A stretch of DNA of 64,000 bases from an uncultured Myxococcales bacterium (lineage in GTDB: Bacteria; Myxococcota; UBA727; JABDBI01): positions 73,611 to 137,610 of the forward strand of contig CAZBMJ010000001.1 of assembly GCA_964493205.1 (NCBI GenBank), in the 5' to 3' direction. Below, in pieces: positions 8,036-38,428 of the stretch. The position numbers and the translations under genes are program-made. Each line of letters opens with the position of its first letter. The stretch's first letter is position 1. Under the pieces are notes generated by a model, which ran no database searches, was not told where the DNA came from, and saw only the letters and a program-made list of their open reading frames with translations.

Positions 8036-8107
8036 AAATACTTTTATTCTTAATCCAAAAAATCCTCAGTATAGCTATACTAGTTAAATAGCTAAGGGGA
8101 GGGTTAA

Positions 8108-8206
8108 ATGAAAGAAGAAATAATAGCTGATTTAGAACTTGATATTGTAGAAGAGGCAGAACTACCTGAGTTTGATGTTCTTTTACAAAGAGAGTACGAA
8201 GGTTAG
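8108..8206 (+). CDS. 32-aa acidic peptide (MKEEIIADLELDIVEEAELPEFDVLLQREYEG), candidate precursor peptide of the downstream modification operon
   Basis: Very strong Shine-Dalgarno sequence (aaggggaggg) 5 nt upstream. Followed by a hairpin plus T-tract. Sits directly upstream of an HExxH/E1-like/YcaO/MFS operon. Not in the supplied ORF track because it is too short. Confidence 0.45.
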   Translation: MKEEIIADLELDIVEEAELPEFDVLLQREYEG

Positions 8207-8218
8207 TGTTATTTTCTA

Positions 8219-8247
8219 GGGTAGGCGCAGGTCTACCCATTTTTATT
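8219..8247 (+). terminator. Intrinsic terminator or attenuator hairpin (gggtag-gcgcaggt-ctaccc then atttttatt) between the small peptide gene and the enzyme genes
   Basis: 6-bp GC-rich stem with an 8-nt loop, followed by a T-run. Position is typical of a partial terminator that raises precursor-to-enzyme transcript ratio. Confidence 0.5.
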
Positions 8248-8258
8248 AAGGTGCATAT

Positions 8259-9194
8259 ATGCAAGATCAAAAAATATTTCATAAAGATTTAACCCTTACA
8301 AATTCTTTATTTTTTATGGATAATTTGGCATTAAGAGTTAAGAAAATTTTACTTTCTAGACTATTAGATTCTGAAATAGAATTAAAAAACCAAATAGAAT
8401 TTATGTTTAACAAAAAAATTGGCAATAGAAGTTTGTTATTGCATTCAGATATATTTTTTTGGATTAAAAGCCAAGAAAAAACTCCTCTAGAAAATATCTT
8501 AAAAAGTGTTTTAGATAGCTTTAAAACTATGCAAAATAACAAAAATAATTTTGGTTTTTTTATAAGCATTAATTATTTAAATAAAATTTTTACGAGTAAT
8601 CGTCTAGCACGAGCTCAAAGAGCAGCTTCTGAGGCAGGAACTGGAGAAATTTCTTTTAGTATTGTTGATGCTGATCTAGATTTATTCAATGAATCAATAA
8701 GGCTTTTATGTGATTATTATCCTTCTATTATGCAAGAGACAGAAAATTTTGTAAGCAATATTTGTTTTTTTGAAGGTAAGACTATTATAGGCTTTACTGA
8801 TTTTCAAAATCATGGCTCTATTTTTATGAAGTATCGATTAGTAAAAGATAATCCAATACGCCTAGCTGAAGAAATTGTTCATGAAGCAGGACATACAGTG
8901 CTTAATACTATTATGGTCAAAGATAGATTGATTTTAAATACTAAAGACGAGCGCTATAGTAGCCCGTTAAGGCAAGACTTAAGGCCGATGTTTGGCTTAT
9001 TTCATCAGTTATATGTTTTATCTAGGCTTAAAAAATTTTATATGGCCATCAGTAAAGCCCATAGCTCAGTAGCACAAAAGCAGTTACAAAAAATATGTGC
9101 GCAGCAAGATTTAGCTTTTGATATTGTTTCAAAAAATGCAAAATTTACCCCATTTGGTAAACAATTTTTTAATGAGCTTGAGTGTAATGCATGA
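8259..9194 (+). CDS. HExxH-motif protein (putative metal-dependent peptide-modifying enzyme or peptidase)
   Basis: IVHEAGHTVLNT HExxH motif. 4-nt ATGA overlap with the downstream E1-like gene indicates translational coupling. Confidence 0.4.
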   Translation: MQDQKIFHKDLTLTNSLFFMDNLALRVKKILLSRLLDSEIELKNQIEFMFNKKIGNRSLLLHSDIFFWIKSQEKTPLENILKSVLDSFKTMQNNKNNFGFFISINYLNKIFTSNRLARAQRAASEAGTGEISFSIVDADLDLFNESIRLLCDYYPSIMQETENFVSNICFFEGKTIIGFTDFQNHGSIFMKYRLVKDNPIRLAEEIVHEAGHTVLNTIMVKDRLILNTKDERYSSPLRQDLRPMFGLFHQLYVLSRLKKFYMAISKAHSSVAQKQLQKICAQQDLAFDIVSKNAKFTPFGKQFFNELECNA

Positions 9195-10219
9195 GCTTAT
9201 TAGTCTTAGCACCAAAAGTACAAATAGTGCCTCTTGATGAAAACAAAATAATATTATTTAAAAAGCATGCAAAATCTGCAAAACTAAGTATCGAACCATA
9301 TAAACATGAAATTTTTGCTAATCTTTTAGTAAGTGGTTTTAAAAAAGAAGATCTAAGTTTTTTACTGGAAAAGCCTCAAAATATTATTGATAATTTAATT
9401 CAAAAATTGCTTGAACATAAAATTTTATCTTTTAAGTCAGAAAACCATGTTTTGGCAAAATATAGAAGGCTAGAAGCTTATTTAGAAAATTCTCAATTAG
9501 AAAGCTTACAAAACAGTTCTGTTTTATTATTAGGAGTAGGCGGTCTTGGTAGTTATATTTTTGAACATTTAGTTGCCAATGGAATTAAAAATATTACTGT
9601 TCTTGATGATGATAGCGTTGAAGAAAGTAATTTATCCAGACAGACTTTGTATTCTGATGAAGATGTAGGAAACCTCAAAGTTGAGGCGGCAGCTGTATAT
9701 GCTCATAAGCATGGTATAAATATCCGCGCTTTAGCATGCAGAATTAACACTACTGATGATATACTAAAGATTATTAAAGATAATAAATTTGATTTGATCA
9801 TATCCACCATAGATGAGCCCATATGGCAAGTTACGAGATATGTTATTAACGCTGCAAAAGCAACAAATATACCAGTATTACGAGCTAATAGTAGGGCTGT
9901 GGGGCCATTTTATTTTCCTCATAAATCAGCGTGTCCTTTGTGTAAATCTTTTTATAAGGCGAAAAATATACCAAATGCTAAAAGTATTATGGAGCGTTAT
10001 AATAATGGTTTTCCAGCTCGTAAAACCTGCGCTATTAGCTATGAACTTGCCTATGTTAGTTTAATCGTCATAAAAGAGGCTATTAATTTTTTAGCCAATG
10101 TGGGTCAACTTGCCAGTTTCAATAAAGAGCTTACCTGGAATGCACAAGAACTAAGTGTTGCATCTCACAAAGTTATTGCTTGTAGTAATTGCATCGCTTG
10201 CGGTGATGTTTATGAGTGA
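9191..10219 (+). CDS. E1/ThiF/MoeB-like adenylyltransferase-family protein with a ~100-aa N-terminal extension and C-terminal CxxC...CxxCxxC cysteines (MccB/PaaA-like architecture)
   Basis: Rossmann motif LLLGVGGLGS, ThiF signature DDDSVEESNLSRQ, and C-terminal CPLCK...CSNCIACG. Confidence 0.6.
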   Translation: MSLLVLAPKVQIVPLDENKIILFKKHAKSAKLSIEPYKHEIFANLLVSGFKKEDLSFLLEKPQNIIDNLIQKLLEHKILSFKSENHVLAKYRRLEAYLENSQLESLQNSSVLLLGVGGLGSYIFEHLVANGIKNITVLDDDSVEESNLSRQTLYSDEDVGNLKVEAAAVYAHKHGINIRALACRINTTDDILKIIKDNKFDLIISTIDEPIWQVTRYVINAAKATNIPVLRANSRAVGPFYFPHKSACPLCKSFYKAKNIPNAKSIMERYNNGFPARKTCAISYELAYVSLIVIKEAINFLANVGQLASFNKELTWNAQELSVASHKVIACSNCIACGDVYE

Positions 10220-11354
10220 GATGTTTGGAGGCATAGGCACTGATAATGTTATTACTAAAAAATTTTTTCATGAAGAGTCAAGTTTTTATATTGCATACTT
10301 AGCAGCTAAATCACCTAAATTTTTAGGCAATTATAACATACCTGCAGGATATTTAGTGGGTAATGGTTTTTCTTTTAACGAAGAAGAAGCTAAAATAAAG
10401 GCTTTAGGCGAATTTATTGAGAGGTATTGTGCAGAAGTAAGTGTTCATGAAAAAGAAATTTATCGTTATTCTATAAAAGAGCTCGTTAAAAAATCTTTGG
10501 CTTTTGTTCACCCTAATACTCTTAGACCATACAAAAATTGTTCAAAATATCCAGAAATTCAAGATGATGAAGTTATCTCCTATGTTAAAGGTTATGAAGC
10601 ACTTGATAAAAAAGAAATTCTAATACCTGCCTTAGCTGCATTTTTGCCTTTTAAGCCTATTAATTTAGAAACAACTTTTTTTAGCCCCAGTGCTACTGGT
10701 TTGTCAGCTTATACTAATCAAGAACAAGCAGAATTATCAGCTTTATTAGAGGTTCAGGAAAGAAGCGATTTAATGGCCAGTTGGCGAATTAAAAACCTTA
10801 AAATTCAAAAATTGCTTACAAACGATTTGCCTGACCATATTACAAAATTTTTATATTATAATAATTTTAAGTTAAGGCTATTTGTAATTAATCAGACTGT
10901 TTTAGCTATGCTGTGTCATATAAACGATACTGGGTTAACTATTGGCTCTAAATCAGGAGTCATTAATATTATTACGATACTTGCTGCTATTAATGAAGCA
11001 ATTGCTTTGCAAATTACCATGCTAAATAAACGTGTGAGATTTAACGCTATCCCTAAAAATAGTTTAGAACATGTTATGTATGCTTATTTTAACTCTGAAA
11101 TATTTATAGAATTTTATGAGAAAAAAGTTGATGCACAACTAAGTTTTATTTCTGAAAATCAAATAAATAAAAATATATTTTTTGTGGATTTAAGTACTAA
11201 AAAAGCTAAAGAATCAGGTTGGTATTGCGCTAGATGCATAAATATAGAAGCTTTTAGCAAAGAAAATAATGCATATTATCCGCACTTAAAAAACTTTTTT
11301 GAACACGGATTCACTGAGGCTGAGTTAAACTTATTGCCGCATCCTTTTGGTTAA
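10206..11354 (+). CDS. YcaO-domain protein (ATP-dependent peptide backbone-modifying enzyme family)
   Basis: GNGFSFNEEEAKIKALGEFIERY matches the YcaO A-x-GE-x-IERY signature. C-terminus ends in LPHPFG (PxPxP-like). Start chosen at ATG 10206, overlapping the E1-like stop. The ORF track starts it at 10155. Confidence 0.55.
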   Translation: MFMSEMFGGIGTDNVITKKFFHEESSFYIAYLAAKSPKFLGNYNIPAGYLVGNGFSFNEEEAKIKALGEFIERYCAEVSVHEKEIYRYSIKELVKKSLAFVHPNTLRPYKNCSKYPEIQDDEVISYVKGYEALDKKEILIPALAAFLPFKPINLETTFFSPSATGLSAYTNQEQAELSALLEVQERSDLMASWRIKNLKIQKLLTNDLPDHITKFLYYNNFKLRLFVINQTVLAMLCHINDTGLTIGSKSGVINIITILAAINEAIALQITMLNKRVRFNAIPKNSLEHVMYAYFNSEIFIEFYEKKVDAQLSFISENQINKNIFFVDLSTKKAKESGWYCARCINIEAFSKENNAYYPHLKNFFEHGFTEAELNLLPHPFG

Positions 11355-11357
11355 AGA

Positions 11358-12539
11358 ATGAAAAAATCATTGATTATTTTAGGTGTTTCACAAACTATAT
11401 CTTCTATTAGTGTAACTATACTTATATTTGCCCTTATGATGAGCTCTTATGGTAATTCCAAAAGTATTTTAGATCTTGCTTGGGTTTATATAGCCACATC
11501 TTTGCCAGTTTTTTTAGTAGCACCTTTTTGTGGATTATTAATAGATAAGCTTAATAAAAAGCTTAATTTAGTAATAGCCGATAGTATTTGTATTTTATCA
11601 GTACTCTTTCTTTATTTTAATAACTATTTTATTTTCTTGGTAGTTTTTTTTGTACAATTAAGCATAAGTTATCAGGGCTTAACCAATCAAACTTTGGTGT
11701 CGCTATTTTTTAATAAAGATAAACTTCATATGATACTTGGGTGGATGCAATTTAAAAAAGCTTTGCAGCGTTTAGTAGCGCCAGCTTTAGGTGGATATTT
11801 ATATAATATGTTGGAATTAAAATATATTATAGCTGTTAGCATTATTAGTTTAATAATAGCTTTAATTAGTTTAATTTTTGTGAATATACCTAGTGTTAAT
11901 ATTGGAAAATTATCTAACAGCAATTTTATTAATAATGCCGGATTAAAATATATATTGAGCGATAAAAATTTATTTAATATATGCATTTTTTTTATATTTC
12001 TTAATTTTTTATCTGGTATTTATTCTGTTGTTTATACTCCCATATTATTAGCTTTTAGCGATGAACAAGCTTTGGGTTATGCATTAAGTATTGGCAGTTT
12101 GGGAATGATTTTTGCAAGTTTAACGAGCGCTCATATAAAAAGCCTTACACAAAAAAAATATCAAGCTCTTTTGCTATATGTTTTTATGAATGGCTTAAGT
12201 GAAATATTTATGGCTTCATACCCAAATTTTTGGGTCTATTCTGTGGGTTTGTTATTTGGTTGTATTACTTCTTCTTATATAGCTGTTTGTAATAATATTA
12301 TATGGCAGTCTAGTGTGCCGTTCTCTATTCAAGGTGCTACTTTTGGGGCAAGAGATTTTTTTGCTCTTGGTGCATTACCATTGGGTATGCTGATTGGTGG
12401 AATTTTTGGTGATTTTATTAAATCCAACTATGAGCTTTCTCATATATTAATCTTAACGGGAATTTTGCAGTTAATTTTAGTAGCTTTTTATAGCTATGCG
12501 TGGAGGTTTGAGCATGAAGGGGTATATAGTAATAGATAA
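11358..12539 (+). CDS. MFS-family transporter, putative exporter of the modified peptide
   Basis: About 12 predicted TM helices. Starts 4 nt after the YcaO stop. MFS exporters are typical of microcin C and pantocin-type clusters. Confidence 0.55.
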   Translation: MKKSLIILGVSQTISSISVTILIFALMMSSYGNSKSILDLAWVYIATSLPVFLVAPFCGLLIDKLNKKLNLVIADSICILSVLFLYFNNYFIFLVVFFVQLSISYQGLTNQTLVSLFFNKDKLHMILGWMQFKKALQRLVAPALGGYLYNMLELKYIIAVSIISLIIALISLIFVNIPSVNIGKLSNSNFINNAGLKYILSDKNLFNICIFFIFLNFLSGIYSVVYTPILLAFSDEQALGYALSIGSLGMIFASLTSAHIKSLTQKKYQALLLYVFMNGLSEIFMASYPNFWVYSVGLLFGCITSSYIAVCNNIIWQSSVPFSIQGATFGARDFFALGALPLGMLIGGIFGDFIKSNYELSHILILTGILQLILVAFYSYAWRFEHEGVYSNR

Positions 12540-13134
12540 TTTTTATGAGAATCCTGATTTAATTAGAGCTCAAGCTTTAGAAGCTGATTTTTCTAAAAAG
12601 CATCCAAAATATCCAGGTATTGATAGCTCGTTAATGTTTAATAATAGTGAAGCTGAAGAGAAAATTAAAAGTATTATAAAATATGATACTCAAAGAGCAA
12701 GCTATTCAGGATTTTTTCGATTATCTACTGCGGATGAATATTACAAAGAAGGACATGGTATTCATATTGATAAATATGATATTGCTGCGATAATTTATTT
12801 AGCTCAGCCTGGCCAAAATAAACAGGTAGGTACAAGCTTTTTAAAGCATAAAGCTTCTGGTCTTACTAATTTTTATAATATTAAAAGAGATCCTAATCTT
12901 AATCCTGATTGGCAGCGTTTGGATACTCAAGAAATTATGAAAATAATTGTTAACGATATGGAAAAAAATGATGCAACTTTATGGGATTTAGTAGAAGAAG
13001 TGGAGTTTAAATATAATCGCGCTGTTTTAATGAGAGGTAACTTATTTCATAAGTTGAGTAACGGCTTTGGGCAAAATGTAGAAAACGGTCGCTTAACTCA
13101 AAATTTCTTTTTAAATATACCAAGAACTTTATAA
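12514..13134 (+). CDS. Putative 2OG-Fe(II) oxygenase-like protein (candidate HxD...H facial triad: HIDKYD and LFHKLS)
   Basis: N-terminal VIDNFYENPD motif resembles putative 2OG-Fe(II) oxygenase families. The ORF track start at 12496 overlaps the MFS gene. The second Met at 12514 is preferred. Confidence 0.35.
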   Translation: MKGYIVIDNFYENPDLIRAQALEADFSKKHPKYPGIDSSLMFNNSEAEEKIKSIIKYDTQRASYSGFFRLSTADEYYKEGHGIHIDKYDIAAIIYLAQPGQNKQVGTSFLKHKASGLTNFYNIKRDPNLNPDWQRLDTQEIMKIIVNDMEKNDATLWDLVEEVEFKYNRAVLMRGNLFHKLSNGFGQNVENGRLTQNFFLNIPRTL

Positions 13135-13231: not shown

Positions 13232-14425
13232 ATGTTAAAAATTAAATTATTATATTTATTATTGCTTTTACAGTTTTTTTCTTGCACTAATTATAATAAA
13301 CAAATCAAAAAAAATAATAATTTATTGTCCTTATGGCTCCCTTTTTCTTCTAAAAGAACAAAACAAGCTTATGAGCATTCTTTAATTAGAACTTCTAGGC
13401 TTAGTTCTGATTGCGGCAAAAATTGTCCTGATATTGATGTTTGGCAATATAAATACAAAAATATAACTAGTGATAAACCTATTTCTACTCAAAAAAAATA
13501 CTGGAAATCACCTAATGAAGCTCGAGTCATAGCTATAAGTTTATTTGGAACCAATGAGTTTTATTATAATGCTTTGCTGCAATATATAGATAGTTTTGCT
13601 TATATTAAAAATATTAATAATATAAAAGATAAAATTTGGGGTTATGAAACGTTTACTGTTAGAGTTTATGTTCCCAAACGAAATCCTAAATTTTTAAAAG
13701 AATTAGGGGTGATTGGAGGCGGCTTAGAGCAGAAAAAAATAGATAAATTATTAGATTTAGGATGCGAAATAGCATTTGTTGATAATAAATTATCTGAGGC
13801 TAAGAAAGATGCTACTTTTTGGCGATTTATGATTACTCAAGAAGCCATGTTAGAAGGCGAAAAAATTAGATATCTACTTAGAGATGCAGACAGTATTTTA
13901 ACTGCTGGTGAAATGTACACAGTTGCCGATTGGATCAATAGCCATAAAAAATATCATAGAATGCATACCATACCCATTTGTATAGGTCCTTTAACGGCAA
14001 GTATTTGGGGGGGGACTCATAGCGAAAAGGGTGATTTTAGTGATTTTTATGACTCGGTAAAAAATTACCCTTATAGATTTGAATACGGCGATGATGAATT
14101 ATTTTTAAGAGACATTATTTGGCCAAAAATAAAATTTTCTGGTTCTGTTCTTACTCATCATTTTGATCGTGATTCATATATAACTAAAATAGCCAACCCT
14201 TATAAAAATAGTTGCGAAGAGCCTACACAGGATTTTTGCTTACAACTAAATCCTAATTCTCAGTGTGAAGATCGTATTTTGCCCAACGTAAAAAATTTAC
14301 AAGGTGCCGTAGAAGCTTTAGGATTAAGAAAAACCTTAAAAGAGTTATCAGAAAAGCACCCAGAGTTTTTTGATCTAGATTTAGCCAACAAAGATAGAAA
14401 ATTTGTTTACGAAACATTTAGGTAA
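13232..14425 (+). CDS. Hypothetical lipoprotein (signal peptide, lipobox FFSC)
   Basis: N-terminal MLKIKLLYLLLLLQFFSCTN. No motif recognised. Confidence 0.5.
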   Translation: MLKIKLLYLLLLLQFFSCTNYNKQIKKNNNLLSLWLPFSSKRTKQAYEHSLIRTSRLSSDCGKNCPDIDVWQYKYKNITSDKPISTQKKYWKSPNEARVIAISLFGTNEFYYNALLQYIDSFAYIKNINNIKDKIWGYETFTVRVYVPKRNPKFLKELGVIGGGLEQKKIDKLLDLGCEIAFVDNKLSEAKKDATFWRFMITQEAMLEGEKIRYLLRDADSILTAGEMYTVADWINSHKKYHRMHTIPICIGPLTASIWGGTHSEKGDFSDFYDSVKNYPYRFEYGDDELFLRDIIWPKIKFSGSVLTHHFDRDSYITKIANPYKNSCEEPTQDFCLQLNPNSQCEDRILPNVKNLQGAVEALGLRKTLKELSEKHPEFFDLDLANKDRKFVYETFR

Positions 14426-16771: not shown

Positions 16772-19700
16772 ATGAACAAAATATTTTTATATTGTTTAGT
16801 GTTTATTACTGCTAATTATTTATCAGCTATGAAATTTAATCCAATTAATAAAGATTGCTATATTGAAAGAAATTATGAGGTATTAAATAACTATAATAAT
16901 TTTAGTGTTTATATTAAATCTAAAATTGTTGATGTTATTGATAATTTTTATGAAAAATATGTGAAAAAAGATCTTCATAATGAAAGATATATGACTAGGT
17001 TGTTATTATTTTTAGTAAATATGGCACATGAATATAATATTGTAGATGATATTTTAGAAAATATTGAAAAAAATAATGAACAAGAAATTATAATTTACGC
17101 AAAAGAAATATACTTAAAATTTAGTAAAAATAATAATGAATTAATTCAAAATGCTTACACGGCTTTTGACGATAAAATATCAATAGAAGAATTAAATAAA
17201 TTAAGTCTTAATAATTCATATGGCATTGATGTTGTATATAAAAATAATAACATGATTAATCACCATTTAGTGGATATGATATTTTTTAAAATTATTAAAA
17301 ATAATTGTGATTTAGAAATAACTAGCCCTTCTTTAGGAATAACACTTCCAGCATCTATATGGTTTAAGTTGATTATTCTTGATCAGCAAGTAAAGATTTT
17401 ACTTTATAAAGAAAAATTTATATATAAACCATATTTTCCTTCAGTTGTTATAGAAACTTTATTTGATGATAATAATCATAGTAATTGTAGTAATATCGAG
17501 AAAATTAATAAATTATTAAGTGGTTTATTTTTATTTAATAAAAGTGATTTTGATATTATAAAAAATGCATTTAAGTTTATAAAAAATATAGAAGATTTTA
17601 AAAATTTTAATAAAAAAGATCATTTTTTTCTTTTTAGATATATTGCTTATAAATACGATGATAAAAAAAAATATACAATGTTAAATTATTTTACAGAAAA
17701 TATTATATCTAAGAATTATGTTGATTTTTATAATGATAATTTTGGATTTTCTTCATTAGTAAATGAACTCAATCTTAATGTAAATGATTATAGTGCTGAA
17801 AAGATTGAAAATATTAAAAATAATATAATCAACCAACATAAAAAACGTATGTATGAAATTTTATCTAAAAAATATTTTTACAATAAAGAAGTGAGTGATA
17901 ATATTGCTCGAATAGAATATGATAATTTTCTGTTTGAAAGTGAAATTGTTAATAATTATAATAAAATAATTATTGATTTTAATAAAAAAAATAAAGATAT
18001 ATTAACTGTTGATAAAATTTTAAAAATTAAAAGCAATTTCAATGAATCTTTTAAGAAAAAAATTTTTGATATAACTGAAATATTAAAAAATAATTTAAAT
18101 AATAAACAAATTGGCATTTATAATAAATTTAATAATATTTATTTTGATTATAATGAATTTAAAAACATTGAGATTTTTGATTATAATTATGAGATGACAG
18201 ATTTTTATAAAAAAATTAGAAATAGATTGTTTGCTAATGAAATTGTTAAATTGATAATTATTAAATCGATTAAATTTAATTTTATAAACGATAATTCAAC
18301 GGAACAAGATGTTATTAATTTAATTAAAGAAAGGACTAATTTTTTATTAAATAGTAATAGTAAAAACATGTTCGATAATGAAATTATTTATTTAAATAAT
18401 ATTGTAGATATTAAATATAAGTCAAAATCTAAAAATTTAATAGGTATTGATGTATTTATTTTTAATGAATTTTTAAGAGAGTTTTATTTGAAAATATTTT
18501 ATATATCTCCTGAAAATAAATATAATTTTTCTACAAAAAGCAATAAATTAGATATTGAATTACGATTTGATGAATGGCTCTTATTATTTGAAACTTTATC
18601 AAAAAAAGCAATTTTTAATGAGTTAGCAGTGCAAAATATTTTTGATAAAATAGTTGAGAAATTTAAAGATATTAAAGCTTATATAAAATACAACAATGAG
18701 AATCCATTTTTTGATAATTATTTAGCGGGTAAAAACAATCAATCTCTTAGAAAAAAACTGTTTGTTTATTATTTATATAATGAAAATAAAGAACTTATTG
18801 ATAATATTAAAAATGAAAATAATGAAGAAATTATAAGAAATAAATTTAATAATTTTTTAAGCAAAATTAATTACGCTAATAAGATTTTAATCAATAATAA
18901 AGAACAAGAAGAGCTAAAAGAACAAGATAAAGCGATTATCGATGAATATTTAGAAGAATTATTAGGTAAAACTTCTCATATAAGTTTTGCGTCAAATAAA
19001 AAAAATAATAAAAAAACGCAAGCTAAGAAAAAAACAAAAGTAAAACCAGATAAAAAAACAGAAAATAAAAAAGAACTAGAACCAGAGGCAACTAAAAATA
19101 ATAAAGACAAGCAAAAAACAACTAAAACTAATAAAAACAACAAAAACCCACAAAACCAAACTGGTGGTTTTATTGCAGATATACCTCTTCATAATAATAC
19201 AAAAAAAACAAAGAAAGCTTTGACGAAAGGGAAAATATTAGTCCAAGAAGCAGAGGCAGAAAATAAAAAAGAAGTAGAGCCGAATGCAACTAAAAGTAAT
19301 AAAAACAAGAAAAACCAACAAGAACAAACTGGTGGTTCTGTTGCTGAAAGTCCAGGTGTAGGGCTTCGTGAAGTTTTTGAAGCAACGCCTAGTCCTCCTG
19401 AGAATTCAAAAGTTTTTTTACCAAAAGCCTCTAATAAAGTTTTGCCGAAAAGGGAAATATTAGTCCGAGAAGCAGAGGTAGAACCAGAAGCAGAACCATC
19501 TACAGATTTATCTAAATACAAATATTTATCAAAAAAAGTTATTGTACCACAAATAAATAGCCAGTTTGGAGCTTTGCAGTATAAACTTGATAAAAAATAT
19601 GAAGATAAGCAAGAAAAAGTAGGGAAAAATGATGTAGTTTCTCTGCCTAACAGTAATGAGAAACCAGTAGCTATTAAACAAAAAACTGAATTGAGTCCTG

Positions 19701-20917
19701 TTCAAAATATTGAAAAAGAAGAATCAATAGTTTCAGAAGAAAAAAAAGAAATGTCAAAAAGAAAAATAAGAAAAGCAGAAATCAAAAGAATGAAAATTAA
19801 AGAAGATAGGGCTGAAAGAAAAAAAATTGCTATAAATGCTATAAATAATCAAAAATCTTTAAAAGCTAGTAAGGACAATTGGGAAAAAGAACAGCAAAAT
19901 AGAGAATTAGCATCAAAGAATAATTATGAAAAACTCTTATTAGAGTTAGAAAACAGAAATAGGGTTATAGAAAAAGCACTGTTAAAAAATGATTTTAAAG
20001 TAGTAGCGCTTAAAAAGAAATTAGAAGACGAATTGGAACGCAATAAAGTATCAATAAATCAAATACGCAAAAAAATAAACGATAAAACATTAAACTTAAA
20101 AGAGGCAGAAAAAAGTGTATCTATTTATTCAATTGAAAATTATGAAAAACCAGTAGTTATTCAACAAAAAACTGAATTAAGTCCTGTTCAAAATATTGAA
20201 AAAGAAAAGCCAAAGGCTGTACAAAAAAGAAAGGAAAATAATAATAAAGTAAGAAATTTTTTCGATACTACTAAAAATATTGCTAAAGATGCTATTTCTG
20301 CAGCTTCTGCAACTAAAAAAGTTGTTTTAGGGGATTTTGCATATGTGGCCAATTTTTTAAGTCAAAGACAAATAAATAGAATACAAACAGAAAATAAAAA
20401 ATTTATTGATAATTTTTCTAAAGATAAGGAAAAATACACTGAAATGATAAAAGAAATTTCAAAAAATTATTGCAATAATATTTTTGCTTTAGATGAGTTT
20501 ATAAATATATTGATTAATGAAAAACATAATGAAGATATTAATTATTTTAATATTAAATTATCAGAGGTTGATCTATATATTAAGAATATTTCTTTAAATC
20601 AGAATAATAAAAATGTTAATAATCTTGTTGAGCAAATATGTAATAATTTTAAATATTTAAATGAACATGAGGCAAATTTTATACAATTGATTTATTCATC
20701 ATCACATTATCAAAATTTGGTATATTCATTTATGCAAGTAGATGGTAATATTAGTGAACAAGATTTTAGTAAGTTATTGTTATGGGGTACTGCACATATA
20801 AAACAAAAAACTTTACTAAGTGATCGAGTTCTTGCTTATAAAAATAAAAGAAACATGTATTATGGCTATATAATTTCTTCTTATGAAAGATTAAGAGAAA
20901 TTTTAAAGCAAGAATAG
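16772..20917 (+). CDS. Giant (1381 aa) low-complexity Asn/Lys/Ile-rich secreted protein with internal tandem repeats
   Basis: 4.1-kb ORF in 30% GC DNA cannot plausibly arise by chance. Signal peptide MNKIFLYCLVFITANYLSA. Repeats at 19061..19482 and at 19658..19721 / 20144..20209. Confidence 0.6.
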   Translation: MNKIFLYCLVFITANYLSAMKFNPINKDCYIERNYEVLNNYNNFSVYIKSKIVDVIDNFYEKYVKKDLHNERYMTRLLLFLVNMAHEYNIVDDILENIEKNNEQEIIIYAKEIYLKFSKNNNELIQNAYTAFDDKISIEELNKLSLNNSYGIDVVYKNNNMINHHLVDMIFFKIIKNNCDLEITSPSLGITLPASIWFKLIILDQQVKILLYKEKFIYKPYFPSVVIETLFDDNNHSNCSNIEKINKLLSGLFLFNKSDFDIIKNAFKFIKNIEDFKNFNKKDHFFLFRYIAYKYDDKKKYTMLNYFTENIISKNYVDFYNDNFGFSSLVNELNLNVNDYSAEKIENIKNNIINQHKKRMYEILSKKYFYNKEVSDNIARIEYDNFLFESEIVNNYNKIIIDFNKKNKDILTVDKILKIKSNFNESFKKKIFDITEILKNNLNNKQIGIYNKFNNIYFDYNEFKNIEIFDYNYEMTDFYKKIRNRLFANEIVKLIIIKSIKFNFINDNSTEQDVINLIKERTNFLLNSNSKNMFDNEIIYLNNIVDIKYKSKSKNLIGIDVFIFNEFLREFYLKIFYISPENKYNFSTKSNKLDIELRFDEWLLLFETLSKKAIFNELAVQNIFDKIVEKFKDIKAYIKYNNENPFFDNYLAGKNNQSLRKKLFVYYLYNENKELIDNIKNENNEEIIRNKFNNFLSKINYANKILINNKEQEELKEQDKAIIDEYLEELLGKTSHISFASNKKNNKKTQAKKKTKVKPDKKTENKKELEPEATKNNKDKQKTTKTNKNNKNPQNQTGGFIADIPLHNNTKKTKKALTKGKILVQEAEAENKKEVEPNATKSNKNKKNQQEQTGGSVAESPGVGLREVFEATPSPPENSKVFLPKASNKVLPKREILVREAEVEPEAEPSTDLSKYKYLSKKVIVPQINSQFGALQYKLDKKYEDKQEKVGKNDVVSLPNSNEKPVAIKQKTELSPVQNIEKEESIVSEEKKEMSKRKIRKAEIKRMKIKEDRAERKKIAINAINNQKSLKASKDNWEKEQQNRELASKNNYEKLLLELENRNRVIEKALLKNDFKVVALKKKLEDELERNKVSINQIRKKINDKTLNLKEAEKSVSIYSIENYEKPVVIQQKTELSPVQNIEKEKPKAVQKRKENNNKVRNFFDTTKNIAKDAISAASATKKVVLGDFAYVANFLSQRQINRIQTENKKFIDNFSKDKEKYTEMIKEISKNYCNNIFALDEFINILINEKHNEDINYFNIKLSEVDLYIKNISLNQNNKNVNNLVEQICNNFKYLNEHEANFIQLIYSSSHYQNLVYSFMQVDGNISEQDFSKLLLWGTAHIKQKTLLSDRVLAYKNKRNMYYGYIISSYERLREILKQE

Positions 20918-20918
20918 C

Positions 20919-22025
20919 TTAATCAATTTTAAGTAATGTCTCTAATAATTTATATGAAACTAAATAGGGGTCAGAGTTGGCCCCTGGTCTTCTATCTTCT
21001 ATATAACCGCATTTTTCTCGTTCAACCATATCTGGTATTCGTATGGAAGCACCTCGGTCTCGTGGGCCGGCTCTAAAGGTATTAATATCACAGGTTTCAT
21101 ATTTGCCAGTTAACCTTTTTTCTAAACCATGGCCGTAGTATTTTATATGCTCTGGATGCCTTGTTTTTAGTGTTTCTATAAATTTATTTATAAACTCCAT
21201 GCCACCAATTTTATTGCGCATTTGGATAGTAGAAAAATTAGTATGATTGCCCGCTCCATTCCAATCGCCTGCCATAGGTTTATTATCAAAAGACACATGA
21301 ATATTAAGATCTTCAGCTATACGAACTAGCAACCATCTTGCTATCCATAATTGGTCACAAACGTTAATAGGGCTTGCATCTTCATTCTCAATATTTCTAT
21401 AGCCGATCTGAAATTCCCAACTTGAAGGCATGACTTCTGCATTAGTTCCAAAAATCATTAAATCAGCTTTTAAACAAGCCTGCATATGAGCTTCTACAAG
21501 CTCTCTTCCAAACATTTTGTTGCTACCAATGCCGCAATAATAATCGCCCTGAGGTTTGGGTAAGCTTTCTTTGGGCCAACCTAACGGTCTACTTTTATCA
21601 AATTCAAATAGGGTATATTCTTGTTCAAAACCAATATAGCAATCATATTTTTTACAATCTTTACTTAAACTTGCTAGTTGTGCTCTAGTATTTGATTCAA
21701 TAGGGTTATATTGATCATCAACAACTTCACAAAGAACCAAAAAATTGCCCAAACCTCTAATAGGATCTTTAAAAAATGATACGGGCATAAGCACTAAATC
21801 AGATTTATTACCACTAGCTTGGTAAGTGGATGAACCATCAAAAGACCAGTAAGGGAAATCCTTTATTGTAATATTATTTGTAGTATCAAAATCAAGTATT
21901 CGACATTTGCTGCGAAGTTTAGGAGTTAGTTTTTTGCCGTCTAGCCAAATATATTCAACGCATGATTTCATTAATTTATCGCCTGTAAATTTTCTACAAC
22001 TATTAAAACAAATAGCTTTAATCAA
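20919..22025 (-). CDS. glnII: Glutamine synthetase type II (eukaryote-like)
   Basis: Motifs KPQGDYYCGIG, NGAGNHTNFS, RLTGKYETCDINTF and RGASIRIP are type II glutamine synthetase signatures. True start probably at the internal Met (MKSCVEY). Confidence 0.8.
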   Translation of the reverse strand: MIKAICFNSCRKFTGDKLMKSCVEYIWLDGKKLTPKLRSKCRILDFDTTNNITIKDFPYWSFDGSSTYQASGNKSDLVLMPVSFFKDPIRGLGNFLVLCEVVDDQYNPIESNTRAQLASLSKDCKKYDCYIGFEQEYTLFEFDKSRPLGWPKESLPKPQGDYYCGIGSNKMFGRELVEAHMQACLKADLMIFGTNAEVMPSSWEFQIGYRNIENEDASPINVCDQLWIARWLLVRIAEDLNIHVSFDNKPMAGDWNGAGNHTNFSTIQMRNKIGGMEFINKFIETLKTRHPEHIKYYGHGLEKRLTGKYETCDINTFRAGPRDRGASIRIPDMVEREKCGYIEDRRPGANSDPYLVSYKLLETLLKID

Positions 22026-36160: not shown

Positions 36161-38428
36161 TTACGCTTCCTGCGCTAACGCATTTAGTGCAGAGCCCGCT
36201 CTAAACCAATTTAATTGCCCTTCAGAAAAGCTATGATTACAAACTATGGCTTCTGTTTGGCCGTTAGCATGTTTAATAATCACTTTGACGGGCAAATTTT
36301 CAGCTAATTGATGTAGGTTGACAATAGAAATTCTGTCGTCTTCTAATATTTTATCGTAATCTTTTGGATTAAAGAAAGTTAAGGGCAATATTCCGTGTTT
36401 TTTAAGGTTAGTTTCGTGGATTCTGGCAAAACTTCTTACAATAATGGCTTTACAACCTAAATGCCTTGGTTGCATAGCTGCATGTTCTCTGCTGGAACCT
36501 TCACCAAAATTTTCATCGCCAATCACTACCCAAGAAATATTATTCGCCATATATTTGCGTGCCAAATCAGGAATAAGCATTGGCTTTTTATTGTCTAACA
36601 AATCTAGCCCAAATCCAGGTTGATTAGTAAAACTATTAACAGCTCCAATATAAGTGTTATTAGAAATTTTATCTAAATGGCCTCGATATTTTAACCAAAC
36701 CCCAGCTTGTGAAATATGATCAGTGGTGCATTTGCCAGAAGCTTTTAAAATCACTGGTAAATCAATAAAATCATTGCCATCCCAAGGGCTAAATGGCTTT
36801 AATAAGGCCAGCCTATCAGAATTAGGATCAATTTTTATAGTGATTTTTGCAGGATTATCACTTGGTCTAACATACCCACTATTACTTAAAAGCATACCTG
36901 CTTTAGGAAGCATTTTTCCTATGGGAAGGGAAAGCTTTATTTTTTGGGAATCTTTGGTTAAATAATCATGCTGTGGATCAAAATCTAAATTTCCTGATAA
37001 GGCCATGGCTACTACTATTTCTGGGCTTGTTAAAAATGACAATGTTTCGCTATTGCCGTCGTTTCGACCAGGAAAATTTCTATTGTAAGAACTCACAATA
37101 GTGTTTTTTTGGCCTTTTTTAATATCGTCTCGCTGCCATTGTCCAATACATGGGCCACACGCATTGGCTAATACTACGCCGCCAATTTTTTCTAATGGCT
37201 CTAGTAAACCGTCGTTCTTTACAGTTTGAAAAACAGTTTCACTACCTGGAGTAATATAAAAAGGTACTTTACTTGATAAGCCTAAACTTAAAGCTTGTTT
37301 GGCGATAGAAGATGCTCTTGAAATATCCTCATAAGAACTATTAGTGCAGCTGCCAATAAGAGCAGCCGTTATGTTATTTAAATAGCCTTTTTCTTTTATT
37401 TCGTTTTTAAGTTTGCTTACTGGCCTACATAAATCAGGAGAATGAGGGCCTACTATTTGCGGTTCTAATTTATTTAGATCAATTTTTATGAGTTGGTCAT
37501 AGTAATCTTGTGGTTCTGCATAAACTTCTGGATCAGCTTTTAAAAATTCTGCATATTGATCAGCCAATGTTGCAATATCTTTTCTTGAGGTGGCTATTAA
37601 ATATTTGCTCATAGAGGAATCATAAGGAAATATAGAACATGTAGCACCATGTTCTGCGCCCATATTGGTGATCGTGCCTTTGCCTGTTGCTGATATAGAT
37701 TCGCAAGCCTGACCAAAAAATTCTACAATATGTCCAGTTCCACCCTTTACTGTTAATATTTCCATAAGTTTTAGAATAATATCTTTAGGAGAGCTCCAGC
37801 CATTTAAGCTGCCAGTAAGTTCTACGCCAATAACTTTAGGCCACTTTAATAATAATGGGCCGCCCACCATCACGTCAACTGCATCAGATCCGCCAACGCC
37901 TATGGCGATCATGCCTAAGCCACCAGCATTTGGGGTGTGAGAGTCTGTACCAATCATCATGCCCCCAGGAAAAGCATAGTTTTCTAAAACTACTTGATGA
38001 ATGATACCTGAGCCTGGCTTGAAAAAACCTATACCATATTTTTCACAAGAGCTTTGTAGAAAATCATAAACTTCTTGATTGGTTACTAAAGCGTTATTTA
38101 AGTCTTTATCAGCTCCAATCCTAGCTTGAATTAAATGGTCACAGTGCACGGTGGTAGGGACTGCTACACGTTCTTTTTGTGCAGATGCAAATTGTAATAT
38201 CGCCATTTGTGCTGTGGCATCTTGCATAGCAACTCTATCGGGATAAAAATAGCCATAGGAAGTTCCAGGAATGATTTGGTTTTTATTTTCATCGCACATT
38301 TCTAGCAAATGACTTGATAAAATTTTATGAGTTAATGTTAAAGGCTTTGCAAAATGTTCTCTTGCTTGGTCATGTTTTTTTTTAAGTTTGCTGTAAAGAT
38401 TTTTGGCGATAGTTAATTGATCTGTCAT
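36161..38428 (-). CDS. acn: Aconitate hydratase, short (mitochondrial-like, ~755 aa) form
   Basis: Aconitase signatures include IGSCTNSS and NRNFPGRNDGN. The 755-aa length fits the mitochondrial-type rather than the ~890-aa AcnA type. Confidence 0.85.
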   Translation of the reverse strand: MTDQLTIAKNLYSKLKKKHDQAREHFAKPLTLTHKILSSHLLEMCDENKNQIIPGTSYGYFYPDRVAMQDATAQMAILQFASAQKERVAVPTTVHCDHLIQARIGADKDLNNALVTNQEVYDFLQSSCEKYGIGFFKPGSGIIHQVVLENYAFPGGMMIGTDSHTPNAGGLGMIAIGVGGSDAVDVMVGGPLLLKWPKVIGVELTGSLNGWSSPKDIILKLMEILTVKGGTGHIVEFFGQACESISATGKGTITNMGAEHGATCSIFPYDSSMSKYLIATSRKDIATLADQYAEFLKADPEVYAEPQDYYDQLIKIDLNKLEPQIVGPHSPDLCRPVSKLKNEIKEKGYLNNITAALIGSCTNSSYEDISRASSIAKQALSLGLSSKVPFYITPGSETVFQTVKNDGLLEPLEKIGGVVLANACGPCIGQWQRDDIKKGQKNTIVSSYNRNFPGRNDGNSETLSFLTSPEIVVAMALSGNLDFDPQHDYLTKDSQKIKLSLPIGKMLPKAGMLLSNSGYVRPSDNPAKITIKIDPNSDRLALLKPFSPWDGNDFIDLPVILKASGKCTTDHISQAGVWLKYRGHLDKISNNTYIGAVNSFTNQPGFGLDLLDNKKPMLIPDLARKYMANNISWVVIGDENFGEGSSREHAAMQPRHLGCKAIIVRSFARIHETNLKKHGILPLTFFNPKDYDKILEDDRISIVNLHQLAENLPVKVIIKHANGQTEAIVCNHSFSEGQLNWFRAGSALNALAQEA

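What the first reader, a model, noticed from the sequence alone, without database searches (positions are those of the whole stretch)
9191..10219. E1-like enzyme retains an intact ATP-binding signature and has MccB/PaaA-like accessory regions
E1 homologues in classical thiazole/oxazole-modified microcin (C-protein) complexes are usually catalytically degenerate. This protein keeps the GxGxxG loop and the DDDxVExSNLxRQ motif. It also has a ~100-aa N-terminal extension, comparable to MccB's peptide clamp, and a C-terminal CxxC...CxxCxxC cluster, comparable to MccB's Zn tetrathiolate. That suggests a genuinely adenylating enzyme working alongside the YcaO, not a docking scaffold.
Basis: partly seen in the sequence, partly recalled or inferred. 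Interest (0 to 1): 0.6.

Follow-up and report, generated by a model that had tools for sequence, protein, structure and literature searches.

The report
Intact E1-like adenylase beside a YcaO
This gene encodes a peptide-binding E1/ThiF-type enzyme that, unlike the dead E1-like helpers normally paired with YcaO enzymes, keeps every residue needed to use ATP, and it sits in a rare, undescribed gene cluster for a modified peptide whose chemistry cannot be the usual thiazole/oxazole formation.

Summary
ORF 9191-10219(+) encodes a 342-aa ThiF/E1 protein. It carries GVGGLG, DDDSVEESNLSRQ, Lys163, Asp208 (MccB Asp214), an arginine finger (Arg93) and a four-Cys site.

- **Conservation:** all 17 signature positions are invariant across the nine family sequences aligned (the window's plus eight homologues).
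- **Structure:** the AlphaFold model (pLDDT 88) matches MccB, then PaaA, over its full length, including an N-terminal RRE-like domain.
- **Contrast:** microcin B17 McbB lacks the ATP motifs but keeps both CxxC pairs. Only the ATP signature discriminates; the RRE and the zinc site do not.

The gene lies in a conserved six-gene operon. A 32-aa acidic precursor (...LPEFDVLLQREYEG, no conserved Cys/Ser/Thr) is followed by an aKG-HExxH hydroxylase, the E1-like gene, an ATP-competent YcaO with no RRE, an MFS exporter and DUF6445.

More distant relatives repeat the hydroxylase plus intact-E1 plus YcaO module, once as a single E1-YcaO fusion. The protein is therefore almost certainly the YcaO's docking partner as well.

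My reading is a dual-role partner: leader docking plus probable carboxylate adenylation. Catalysis is inferred, not shown. No description of this cluster type was found in the searchable literature. I rate it a new variant of a known kind.

The parts
8094..8103 (+). Shine-Dalgarno sequence AAGGGGAGGG, 4-5 nt upstream of the precursor ATG
   Evidence: Read directly from the sequence.
8108..8206 (+). Precursor peptide gene, 32 aa: MKEEIIADLELDIVEEAELPEFDVLLQREYEG. It has an acidic beta-strand-like leader and an invariant C-terminal LPE[FL]DVLLQREY[ED][GAN]. The conserved part has no Cys, Ser or Thr.
   Evidence: ORF found. Orthologous peptides lie at the same position in L001, L003, L005, L007 and L040. 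Alignment A3.
8219..8247 (+). Terminator-like hairpin GGGTAGGCGCAGGTCTACCC followed by ATTTTTATT, lying between the precursor gene and the enzyme genes. Probably an attenuator.
8259..9194 (+). aKG-HExxH-type peptide beta-hydroxylase (311 aa, HEAGH motif). Its stop overlaps the start of the E1-like gene.
   Evidence: NCBIfam TIGR04267 at 8e-22, 78 bits against a cutoff of 40. PDB ChlH 8s5f at 2.7e-7.
9191..10219 (+). The finding: an RRE-fused ThiF/E1-like adenylyltransferase, 342 aa.
9191..9433 (+). N-terminal RRE-like winged-helix domain (residues 1-81). It corresponds to the peptide clamp of MccB.
   Evidence: AF2 secondary structure with pLDDT 83-95. Full-length Foldseek alignments to MccB, PaaA, LynD and TruD.
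9467..9469 (+). Arg93, which aligns to the MoeB Arg14 arginine finger. Invariant in the family.
9533..9550 (+). GVGGLG nucleotide-binding loop (residues 115-120).
9605..9643 (+). DDDSVEESNLSRQ (residues 139-151). Contains the ribose-binding Asp139 and the phosphate-binding Arg150, equivalent to MccB Arg157.
9677..9679 (+). Lys163, equivalent to MccB Lys170 and MoeB Lys86.
9812..9814 (+). Asp208, equivalent to MccB Asp214 and MoeB Asp130. This is the Mg2+/catalytic aspartate.
9932..9943 (+). C248-P-L-C251, the first half of the Zn tetrathiolate.
10190..10201 (+). C334-I-A-C337, the second half of the Zn tetrathiolate. C331 is not conserved.
10212..11354 (+). YcaO (380 aa from the likely ATG start; the mechanical GTG start at 10155 is probably wrong). 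ATP/Mg residues are retained, the C-terminus PHPFG is invariant, and there is no RRE.
   Evidence: Pfam YcaO at 1.5e-25. The database protein P0022 is 380 aa. Alignment with Ec-YcaO and McbD conserves E75, E78, E199, E202 and R203.
11358..12539 (+). MFS efflux transporter (393 aa), the likely exporter or immunity protein.
   Evidence: Pfam MFS_1 at 2.5e-17. NCBIfam TIGR00900 at 8.5e-35, 120.8 bits, well below that model's 319.6-bit cutoff.
12514..13134 (+). DUF6445 protein (206 aa from the conserved MKGY start). Invariant H-x-D...H suggests a 2OG/Fe oxygenase-like enzyme, but this is unproven.
   Evidence: Pfam PF20043 at 5e-16. Alignment A4.

Best explanation
The gene encodes a two-domain RiPP enzyme with the architecture of MccB and PaaA: an N-terminal RRE (peptide clamp) and a ThiF/E1 adenylation domain with a structural zinc site. 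It belongs to a six-gene operon that makes an undescribed modified peptide.

I propose it has two jobs.

1. **Docking.** Its RRE binds the acidic beta-strand leader (ELELE[IV]VEE) of the 32-aa precursor. This tethers the C-terminal core (DVLLQREY[ED]x) to the RRE-less YcaO, and possibly to the hydroxylase.
2. **Adenylation.** Its own intact active site uses ATP/Mg to adenylate a carboxylate of that acidic core. The target would be either the C-terminal carboxylate, whose position is fixed one residue after the invariant motif, or an Asp/Glu side chain. The acyl-adenylate is then captured intramolecularly to give a lactone, imide or lactam, as in PaaA, GrcB, EnfB and IndF.

The core has no Cys, Ser or Thr. 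The hydroxylase encoded just upstream probably installs the hydroxyl nucleophile. That hydroxyl would serve either YcaO-driven cyclodehydration to an oxazoline or E1-driven ester formation.

**Shown:** fold, motifs, conservation, operon structure, and recurrence of the hydroxylase-E1-YcaO module.

**Inferred:** actual adenylation, its target, the order of steps, and the product.
For: **Motif integrity and mapping to catalytic residues**
- R150, K163 and D208 correspond to MccB R157, K170 and D214. R93 and D208 correspond to MoeB R14 and D130.

**Purifying selection**
- All 17 signature positions are invariant across nine sequences (the window's plus eight homologues at 45-90% identity to it). 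Only 30% of adenylation-domain columns and 15% of RRE-domain columns are invariant.
- The same residues are kept in the 38%-identical L041.
- They are also kept in the YcaO-linked relatives P0023, P0024 and P0044, which score only 145-203 bits against the family profile versus more than 510 bits for core members.

**Structure**
- The AF2 model has pLDDT 87.9 and pTM 0.80, with pLDDT 93-98 through the Rossmann core.
- Foldseek ranks MccB first at E about 1e-23 over the full length, then PaaA at 2e-18, above LynD and TruD.

**Not a classical C- or F-protein**
- McbB lacks GxGxxG, NLxRQ, the Lys and the Asp.
- TIGR03882 scores 22.6 bits against a cutoff of 36.9. TIGR03603 and TIGR03693 are not hit.

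**Relatives outside the YcaO-linked clade**
- P0013 and P0009 sit in peptide + ThiF + MFS clusters. Their peptides end in Asn (MccA-like) or contain TEEN (PaaP-like).

**Docking role**
- The YcaO domain starts about 50 residues into its protein.
- The E1 stop overlaps the YcaO start.
- P0044 is an E1-YcaO fusion.

**Cassette conservation**
- The six-gene cassette is conserved in unrelated flanks, in loci of 31-52% GC.

**Hydroxylase linkage**
- An HExxH hydroxylase lies upstream in the core family and in L121, where it is 34% identical.
- A Cupin_8/JmjC hydroxylase lies upstream of the fusion in L123.

**Literature context**
- Hydroxylation followed by YcaO cyclodehydration has precedent in the phenyloxazole of curacozole (PMC11575548).
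- Known ThiF-like RiPP chemistries all proceed through carboxylate adenylation (PMC12596934).
Against: - No biochemical data exist for this family.
- Every characterised E1-like partner of a YcaO is non-catalytic (PMC12596934 section 3.6; PMC6395948).
- The C-terminal residue varies (G, A, N), and no single obvious nucleophile/electrophile pair is identifiable from sequence.
- Only three of the next-nearest relatives could be checked for context.
- An intact ATP site could serve binding or regulation rather than chemistry.
Confidence: 0.6

Rival explanations
1. Pure docking partner. The E1-like protein only binds the leader and activates the YcaO, like McbB, BalhC or the E1 domain of LynD. The ATP site is retained for folding, for dimerisation or as an allosteric nucleotide sensor, and it performs no chemistry on the peptide.
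For: - All characterised YcaO-partner E1-like proteins are non-catalytic (PMC12596934; PMC6395948).
- The YcaO lacks an RRE, so it needs a partner.
- The fusion protein P0044 shows tight physical coupling.
- The YcaO keeps the cyclodehydratase-type C-terminus PHPFG and its ATP ligands. It could therefore do all the ATP chemistry itself.
Against: - A scaffold role does not explain why every catalytic residue stays invariant (Arg finger, Lys, Mg-Asp). They are conserved even in YcaO-linked relatives that score only 145-203 bits against the family profile.
- These residues have decayed in McbB.
- The adenylation domain is more conserved than the RRE, with 30% versus 15% invariant columns.
Confidence: 0.25
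2. MccB-type nucleotidylation. The enzyme adenylates the C-terminal residue and converts it into a peptidyl-nucleotide (phosphoramidate) 'Trojan-horse' warhead.
For: - MccB is the best sequence and fold match.
- Two of the six precursors end in Asn.
- An MFS exporter is present, as in mcc clusters.
Against: - Four of the six precursors end in Gly or Ala. MccB chemistry requires a C-terminal Asn (established knowledge; PMC4010828).
- The invariant part is the preceding DVLLQREY[ED], not the last residue.
- This reading gives no role to the YcaO or the hydroxylase.
Confidence: 0.05
3. Sulfur relay. Like ThiF or MoeB, the enzyme adenylates a carboxylate that is then converted to a thiocarboxylate. 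This would supply sulfur for YcaO-dependent thioamide formation in place of TfuA.
For: - The YcaO is present without an azoline-competent precursor.
- The closest NCBIfam models are ThiF, MoeB and SAMP-E1.
- YcaO thioamidation is well known (PMC13174530; PMC8120280).
Against: - The cassette has no ThiS/MoaD-like carrier, no rhodanese domain and no TfuA.
- The scores lie far below the ThiF and MoeB equivalog cutoffs, at 85.6 versus 275 bits.
- The protein carries an RRE, which points to a leader-containing peptide substrate.
Confidence: 0.05

Closest known systems
MccB (E. coli microcin C7 synthetase; PDB 3H5A, 3H5N)
   Same: - It has the same two-domain build: an N-terminal peptide clamp (RRE) plus a ThiF adenylation domain with a Zn tetrathiolate.
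- It is the best sequence hit (5e-19, residues 93-339) and the best fold hit (E about 1e-23, about 355 aligned columns).
- R157, K170 and D214 all have equivalents here.
   Different: - Identity is only about 21%.
- MccB acts alone on a 7-aa peptide that ends in Asn and makes a phosphoramidate.
- Here the precursor is 32 aa and ends in G, A or N.
- Here the enzyme is translationally coupled to a YcaO and a hydroxylase.
PaaA (pantocin A; PDB 5FF5)
   Same: - It is also an RRE + ThiF adenylating enzyme that acts on Glu side chains of an acidic core.
- The paa cluster, as I recall it (not checked here), also pairs the E1-like enzyme with an oxygenase-like protein and an MFS exporter.
- The Foldseek match is 2e-18 over the full length.
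   Different: - The sequence match is weaker, at 1.5e-9 and covering only the nucleotide-binding part.
- There is no YcaO in the paa cluster.
- The precursors here have no EEN motif.
TOMM/LAP C-proteins (McbB, SagC, BalhC) and the E1-like domain of fused cyclodehydratases (LynD, TruD, PatD)
   Same: - They are E1-like proteins with an RRE encoded next to, or fused with, a YcaO.
- The Zn-binding CxxC pairs are shared with McbB.
- LynD and TruD are recovered by the fold search at about 1e-14.
   Different: - Those proteins have lost the nucleotide-binding and catalytic residues and are non-catalytic (PMC6395948; PMC12596934).
- Their substrates have Cys/Ser/Thr cores, and they usually come with an FMN dehydrogenase.
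- Here the ATP signature is complete, the C-protein HMMs are not matched, the core lacks Cys/Ser/Thr, and there is no dehydrogenase gene.
GrcB, EnfB and IndF (ThiF-like RiPP macrocyclases)
   Same: They are RRE + ThiF enzymes that adenylate a Glu side chain or the C-terminal carboxylate. An internal nucleophile then closes a ring: a thiolactone, imide or indolylamide (PMC12596934; PMC12150305; PMC11256085). This is the chemistry I propose as most likely here.
   Different: - None of them is YcaO-associated.
- Their precursors and nucleophiles (Cys, a backbone amide N, the Trp indole) differ.
- I did not compare their sequences with this protein directly.
Curacozole / YM-216391-type pathways (hydroxylase followed by a YcaO)
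   Same: A residue without a native nucleophile (Phe) is thought to be beta-hydroxylated and then cyclodehydrated to a phenyloxazole (PMC11575548). This is a precedent for a hydroxylase feeding a YcaO.
   Different: - The hydroxylase there is a P450.
- The E1-like element is a degenerate domain fused to the dehydrogenase.
- The cores are rich in Cys, Ser and Thr.
aKG-HExxH peptide hydroxylases (ChlH/ChlBH, BpmH, PflC/PosC)
   Same: The upstream gene passes the NCBIfam model TIGR04267 (78 bits against a cutoff of 40) and matches the ChlH structure 8s5f. Known members hydroxylate Asp, His or Gln in RiPPs (PMC12636437).
   Different: Known members are linked to radical SAM, MNIO or biphenomycin-type clusters. 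No paper in the searchable library combines HExxH, RiPP and ThiF.

Membership tests
RRE-fused ThiF-like RiPP adenylyltransferases (MccB/PaaA type) | ThiF/E1 adenylation fold | tested here: met
   - Pfam PF00899 at 1e-34, 120 bits against a cutoff of 28.
- Foldseek matches to MccB, PaaA, MoeB and ThiF.
RRE-fused ThiF-like RiPP adenylyltransferases (MccB/PaaA type) | N-terminal RRE / peptide-clamp domain | tested here: met
   - In the AF2 model, residues 1-81 form strands followed by three helices, with pLDDT 83-95.
- Foldseek alignments to MccB and PaaA span about 350 columns, so they include this domain.
- This rests on a predicted structure only.
RRE-fused ThiF-like RiPP adenylyltransferases (MccB/PaaA type) | Complete ATP/Mg2+ site: Arg finger, GxGxxG, ribose Asp, NLxRQ Arg, Lys, catalytic Asp | tested here: met
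   R93, G115-G120, D139, R150, K163 and D208 are present. They align to the MccB and MoeB residues and are invariant in the family.
RRE-fused ThiF-like RiPP adenylyltransferases (MccB/PaaA type) | Short precursor peptide encoded alongside, with a carboxylate target | tested here: met
   A 32-aa acidic peptide lies 51 nt upstream of the operon's first enzyme gene (about 1 kb upstream of the E1-like gene). It is conserved in six loci. Which carboxylate is the target is unknown.
RRE-fused ThiF-like RiPP adenylyltransferases (MccB/PaaA type) | Demonstrated peptide adenylation | not testable with these tools
   This needs ATP-PPi exchange, detection of AMP release or of the adduct, and active-site mutants.
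TOMM/LAP C-protein (non-catalytic E1-like YcaO partner) | Adjacent or fused YcaO that depends on it for leader binding | tested here: met
   - The genes overlap.
- The YcaO lacks an RRE.
- A fused homologue, P0044, exists.
- Dependence itself is inferred.
TOMM/LAP C-protein (non-catalytic E1-like YcaO partner) | Degenerate nucleotide-binding site | tested here: not met
   The signature is complete here, and absent from McbB in the same alignment.
TOMM/LAP C-protein (non-catalytic E1-like YcaO partner) | Match to the curated C-protein/docking models (TIGR03603, TIGR03882) | tested here: not met
   TIGR03882 scores 22.6 bits against a cutoff of 36.9. TIGR03603 is not reported at E <= 0.01.
TOMM/LAP C-protein (non-catalytic E1-like YcaO partner) | Cys/Ser/Thr-rich core peptide, usually with an FMN dehydrogenase | tested here: not met
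   The conserved core DVLLQREY[ED]x has no Cys, Ser or Thr. No SagB-type gene occurs in any of the cassettes.
Ocin-ThiF-like F-protein (TIGR03693) | Match to the family model | tested here: not met
   The model does not appear among the 25 NCBIfam families listed (26 matched at E <= 0.01), so any match would be weaker than those shown.
ThiF/MoeB sulfur-carrier-activating E1 | Equivalog-level match and a ThiS/MoaD-type substrate | tested here: not met
   - The best scores are 85.6 bits against a cutoff of 275 (ThiF) and 73 bits against 449 (MoeB).
- No carrier gene occurs in any of the cassettes.
- The protein has an extra RRE domain.
MccB proper (microcin C-type) | Precursor with an obligatory C-terminal Asn | tested here: not met
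   The C-terminal residue is G, A, G, N, N and G in the six precursors.

The most novel reading that the evidence does not exclude
A new RiPP class in which one complex applies two different ATP-dependent activations to a hydroxylated, Cys/Ser/Thr-free acidic core. The E1 domain adenylates a carboxylate, and the YcaO phosphorylates a backbone amide. Together they give a heterocycle or macrocycle type not yet seen. This would be the first catalytically active E1-like partner of a YcaO. The recurrence of the hydroxylase-E1-YcaO module in relatives far below family-level profile scores, including a single-chain E1-YcaO fusion, would make it an overlooked branch of YcaO biochemistry rather than a one-off.
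Probability: 0.35. Interest if true: 0.8.

Novelty: new variant of a known kind. Interest (0 to 1): 0.62.

Why it matters
The textbook view is that E1-like partners of YcaO enzymes are dead scaffolds, and that YcaO cyclodehydratases need Cys, Ser or Thr in their substrate. This operon challenges both points:
- the E1-like partner keeps a complete catalytic site under strong selection;
- the strictly conserved core peptide has no classical nucleophile.

A peptide hydroxylase is always encoded next to the pair. If the E1 domain is active, it would be the first YcaO system with two distinct ATP-dependent activating enzymes in one complex. Such a system would probably make a new peptide scaffold.

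The test is cheap. The peptide is 32 aa and there are four enzymes, so it could be done by E. coli co-expression and mass spectrometry.

The family is also very rare. There are eight protein clusters among 5.8 billion and three representatives among 1.84 billion. None was found in the GTDB species-representative genomes.

Tried and rejected
**Searches that failed or found nothing useful**
- The model coordinates are not exposed, so I could not measure the pocket geometry.
- Single-sequence AlphaFold of DUF6445 failed, with pLDDT 35. A profile search of DUF6445 against the PDB found nothing. Its oxygenase nature rests only on an invariant HxD...H.
- A scan of GTDB representative genomes found only generic ThiF/MoeB at 30-37% identity, and no family member.
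- A metagenome scan added one 92%-identical fragment (L040) and one 38% relative (L041). None of the other roughly 110 ThiF loci contains a YcaO detectable with the family profile or with McbD.
- A YcaO homology search returned only the protein itself.
- The YcaO review PMC5406272 is not held.
- Literature searches for DUF6445, for HExxH + RiPP + ThiF, and for YcaO + ThiF + JmjC found no description of this cluster.

**Readings considered and rejected**
- Classical azoline formation is ruled out because the core has no Cys, Ser or Thr.
- MccB-type chemistry does not fit because the C-terminal Asn is not conserved.
- A ThiF/MoeB-type sulfur relay does not fit because there is no carrier, rhodanese or TfuA.
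- The gene at 13232-14425 is not part of the cassette. It is present only in the window and its close relative L008.

**Taxonomy**
It could not be resolved. The window's PolA is at most 62% identical to unnamed metagenomic proteins. It is 58% identical to a MAG labelled 'Myxococcales bacterium'.
Full report
**1. The observation**

The ORF lies exactly at 9191-10219 on the + strand (ATG start, 342 aa). Pfam assigns residues 99-328 to the ThiF family (1e-34, 120 bits against a cutoff of 28).

- LLLGVGGLGS
- VLDDDSVEESNLSRQ
- C248-P-L-C251
- C331-S-N-C334-I-A-C337

The best solved-structure relative by sequence is MccB, at 5e-19, aligned over residues 93-339. In that alignment the query's R150, K163 and D208 fall on MccB R157, K170 and D214. 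I fetched E. coli MoeB and McbB from annotated records and aligned them with MAFFT. R93 falls on the MoeB Arg14 finger, and D208 falls on MoeB Asp130. The roles of these residues come from established knowledge of MccB and MoeB, not from a test here.

**2. Is this more than chance?**

A search of 5.8 billion protein clusters found only eight close homologues, at 45-90% identity. Aligned with the window's protein, they show all 17 signature positions invariant. Only 30% of adenylation-domain columns and 15% of N-terminal-domain columns are invariant. The hypergeometric P is about 3e-10, with the caveat that the positions were partly picked after seeing the alignments.

A profile search of 1.84 billion representatives found three core representatives at 512-571 bits. 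After a sharp drop, a shell of roughly 370-aa full-length relatives appears at 200 bits or lower. I scored the signature in 165 relatives drawn from that search and from the first homologue search, and it is almost universally kept.

C331 is not conserved. The zinc ligands are therefore probably C248, C251, C334 and C337.

**3. Structure**

An AlphaFold2 model built from a 16-sequence alignment has pLDDT 87.9 and pTM 0.80. Residues 1-81 form four short strands, three helices and a final strand, which is RRE-like. The Rossmann core has pLDDT 93-98.

Foldseek against the PDB ranks the hits as follows:

| Target | E-value | Note |
|---|---|---|
| MccB (every chain) | about 1e-23 | about 355 aligned columns, full length |
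| PaaA | 2e-18 | full length |
| MoeB, ThiF, UBA5 | 1e-16 to 1e-14 | adenylation domain |
| LynD | 6e-15 | fused cyclodehydratase |
| TruD | 6e-14 | fused cyclodehydratase |

**4. Which features actually discriminate?**

In the same alignment, McbB, the non-catalytic C-protein of microcin B17 (PMC6395948), lacks GxGxxG, NLxRQ, the Lys and the Asp. It keeps both CxxC pairs. MoeB keeps them too. The RRE is shared with LynD, TruD and McbB.

Only the ATP signature separates this protein from classical C-proteins. The 'MccB-like accessory regions' do not.

NCBIfam agrees. The TOMM docking model TIGR03882 scores 22.6 bits against a cutoff of 36.9. The SagC-type (TIGR03603) and Ocin-ThiF-like (TIGR03693) models are not hit. 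The ThiF and MoeB equivalogs are far below their cutoffs.

**5. The surroundings**

The gene is the third of a tightly packed + strand operon.

| Coordinates | Feature | Evidence |
|---|---|---|
| 8108-8206 | 32-aa ORF behind a strong Shine-Dalgarno sequence: MKEEIIADLELDIVEEAELPEFDVLLQREYEG | |
| 8219-8247 | Terminator-like hairpin | |
| 8259-9194 | aKG-HExxH peptide beta-hydroxylase: TIGR04267 78 bits against cutoff 40; ChlH 8s5f at 2.7e-7 | |
| 9191-10219 | E1-like gene | |
| 10212-11354 | YcaO | |
| 11358-12539 | MFS exporter | |
| 12514-13134 | DUF6445 | |

The mechanical GTG start of the YcaO at 10155 is probably wrong. The database protein is 380 aa.

The YcaO keeps the residues equivalent to Ec-YcaO E75, E78, E199, E202 and R203, and it has an invariant C-terminal PHPFG. 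Its catalytic domain begins about 50 residues in, so it has no RRE of its own.

**6. Conservation of the cassette**

Four other loci with unrelated flanks (L001, L003, L005, L007), at 32-52% GC against 31% for the window, carry the same six genes in the same order. L008, a close relative of the window, starts inside the cassette and shows its last four genes. A fragment, L040, comes from a 92%-identical strain.

The precursors share ...ELE[IV]VEE.[ED]LPE[FL]DVLLQREY[ED][GAN] followed by the stop codon. The conserved part has no Cys, Ser or Thr. Classical azoline formation is therefore impossible on the unmodified peptide.

The stop codon always falls one residue after the invariant motif. This fixes the position of the C-terminal carboxylate.

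**7. Wider relatives**

The relatives split into two groups.

- **YcaO-less sequence relatives.** P0013 (Streptosporangium) and P0009 sit in MFS + short peptide + ThiF clusters. Their peptides end in ...SSGN (MccA-like) or contain ...TEEN... (PaaP-like). A third, P0014, also has no YcaO neighbour, but no peptide or MFS gene was called there and it carries Lys at the D208 position.
- **The three highest-scoring profile neighbours I could examine.** All three are YcaO-linked.
  - P0023 (L121) is preceded by an HExxH protein 34% identical to the window's. It is followed, with overlap, by a YcaO 28% identical to the window's that also ends in PHPFG, and then by a methyltransferase.
  - P0024 sits in the order 80 aa / 329 aa / ThiF / YcaO.
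  - P0044 is a 769-aa single polypeptide: an intact-motif E1 domain fused to a YcaO ending in PHPFG. It is preceded by a Cupin_8/JmjC hydroxylase at 5e-42.

The module 'peptide hydroxylase + intact E1-like + YcaO' therefore recurs in relatives that score only 145-203 bits against the family profile, versus more than 510 bits for core members.

**8. Interpretation**

The fusion, the gene overlap and the RRE-less YcaO argue that the E1-like protein is the YcaO's leader-binding partner. 'Not a docking scaffold' is not supported.

At the same time, every catalytic residue stays invariant in a YcaO-linked lineage, whereas the same residues have decayed in McbB-type partners. This argues that the ATP site is used.

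All characterised ThiF-like RiPP enzymes adenylate a peptide carboxylate, which an internal nucleophile then captures. Examples are MccB, PaaA, GrcB, EnfB and IndF (PMC12596934; PMC12250964; PMC12150305).

I therefore favour a dual role: RRE docking plus adenylation of the C-terminal or an Asp/Glu carboxylate of the acidic core. My confidence is 0.6.

The always-adjacent hydroxylase most plausibly creates the missing hydroxyl nucleophile, either for YcaO cyclodehydration or for E1-driven ester formation. The YcaO route has a precedent in the phenylserine-to-phenyloxazole step of the curacozole family (PMC11575548).

These mechanistic steps are inferred, not shown.

**9. Rivals**

| Rival | Confidence | Main argument against |
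|---|---|---|
| Pure scaffold with a vestigial or regulatory nucleotide site | 0.25 | Every catalytic residue is invariant |
| MccB-type phosphoramidate | 0.05 | C-terminal Asn in only 2 of 6 precursors |
| ThiF-type sulfur relay for thioamidation | 0.05 | No carrier, rhodanese or TfuA; an RRE is present |

**10. Novelty and context**

Reviews state that YcaO-partner ThiF-like proteins 'do not catalyze a specific reaction' (PMC12596934 section 3.6). I found no paper combining HExxH, RiPP and ThiF, none mentioning DUF6445, and none describing this cluster.

The protein is a new member of the RRE-ThiF adenylyltransferases. The operon is a new variant of E1-like/YcaO RiPP systems.

The host is an unassigned bacterium of about 31% GC. 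Its PolA is at most 62% identical to anything in the protein collection. The best named hit is a MAG labelled 'Myxococcales bacterium', at 58%.

Noticed in passing
window 8219-8247 (+): A GC-rich hairpin (GGGTAGGCGCAGGTCTACCC) followed by ATTTTTATT lies directly after the precursor stop and before the first enzyme gene. This looks like the partial terminator that often sets the precursor-to-enzyme transcript ratio in RiPP operons.
   Followed up: partly
window 10155-10221 and 12496-12514: The mechanical ORF starts are probably too far upstream. The YcaO most likely starts at the ATG at 10212, since the database protein P0022 is 380 aa. DUF6445 most likely starts at the conserved MKGY at 12514. 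Either way, neighbouring genes overlap, which suggests translational coupling.
   Followed up: yes
L123 1-3222; L121 1-3923: More distant relatives repeat the module. L123 has a Cupin_8/JmjC hydroxylase followed by a single 769-aa intact-E1-YcaO fusion (P0044). L121 has HExxH, then E1 (P0023), then a YcaO, then a SAM methyltransferase. Both YcaOs end in PHPFG, like the window's. Their precursor genes are cut off by the contig ends.
   Followed up: partly
L035 5811-5939; L037 4471-4563: Two YcaO-less relatives of the E1-like protein sit beside short peptides. One ends in ...SNSSGN (a C-terminal Asn, MccA-like). The other contains ...ISTEENLEL... (resembling the EEN core of the pantocin precursor PaaP). 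These are possible new microcin C-like and pantocin-like clusters.
   Followed up: no
window 12514-13134 (+): The last gene of the cassette is a DUF6445 protein. It has an invariant H90-x-D92 ... H185 (numbered from the 12496 ORF start) and is conserved in all five full cassettes. This suggests a second Fe/2OG-type oxygenase. However, it has no PDB relative and the single-sequence AlphaFold model failed (pLDDT 35).
   Followed up: partly
window 16772-20917 (+): A 1381-aa ORF in a 23% GC stretch encodes a highly repetitive protein rich in Lys, Asn and Glu, with duplicated segments (for example, 'KPVVIQQKTELSPVQNIEKE' occurs twice with one substitution). It has a signal-like N-terminus. Its function is unknown, and it is not part of the cassette.
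   Followed up: no
window 20919-22025 (-) and 36161-38428 (-): The window encodes a eukaryote-like (type II) glutamine synthetase-like protein and a mitochondrial-type aconitase (TIGR01340, 1038 bits). Both are unusual for bacteria. Together with a PolA at most 62% identical to any known protein, they point to a poorly sampled lineage.
   Followed up: partly
window 13232-14425 (+): A 397-aa protein with a signal or lipoprotein-like N-terminus and no Pfam or NCBIfam match follows the cassette. It occurs only in the window and in its close relative L008. It is absent from the other cassettes, so it is probably unrelated to the pathway.
   Followed up: partly
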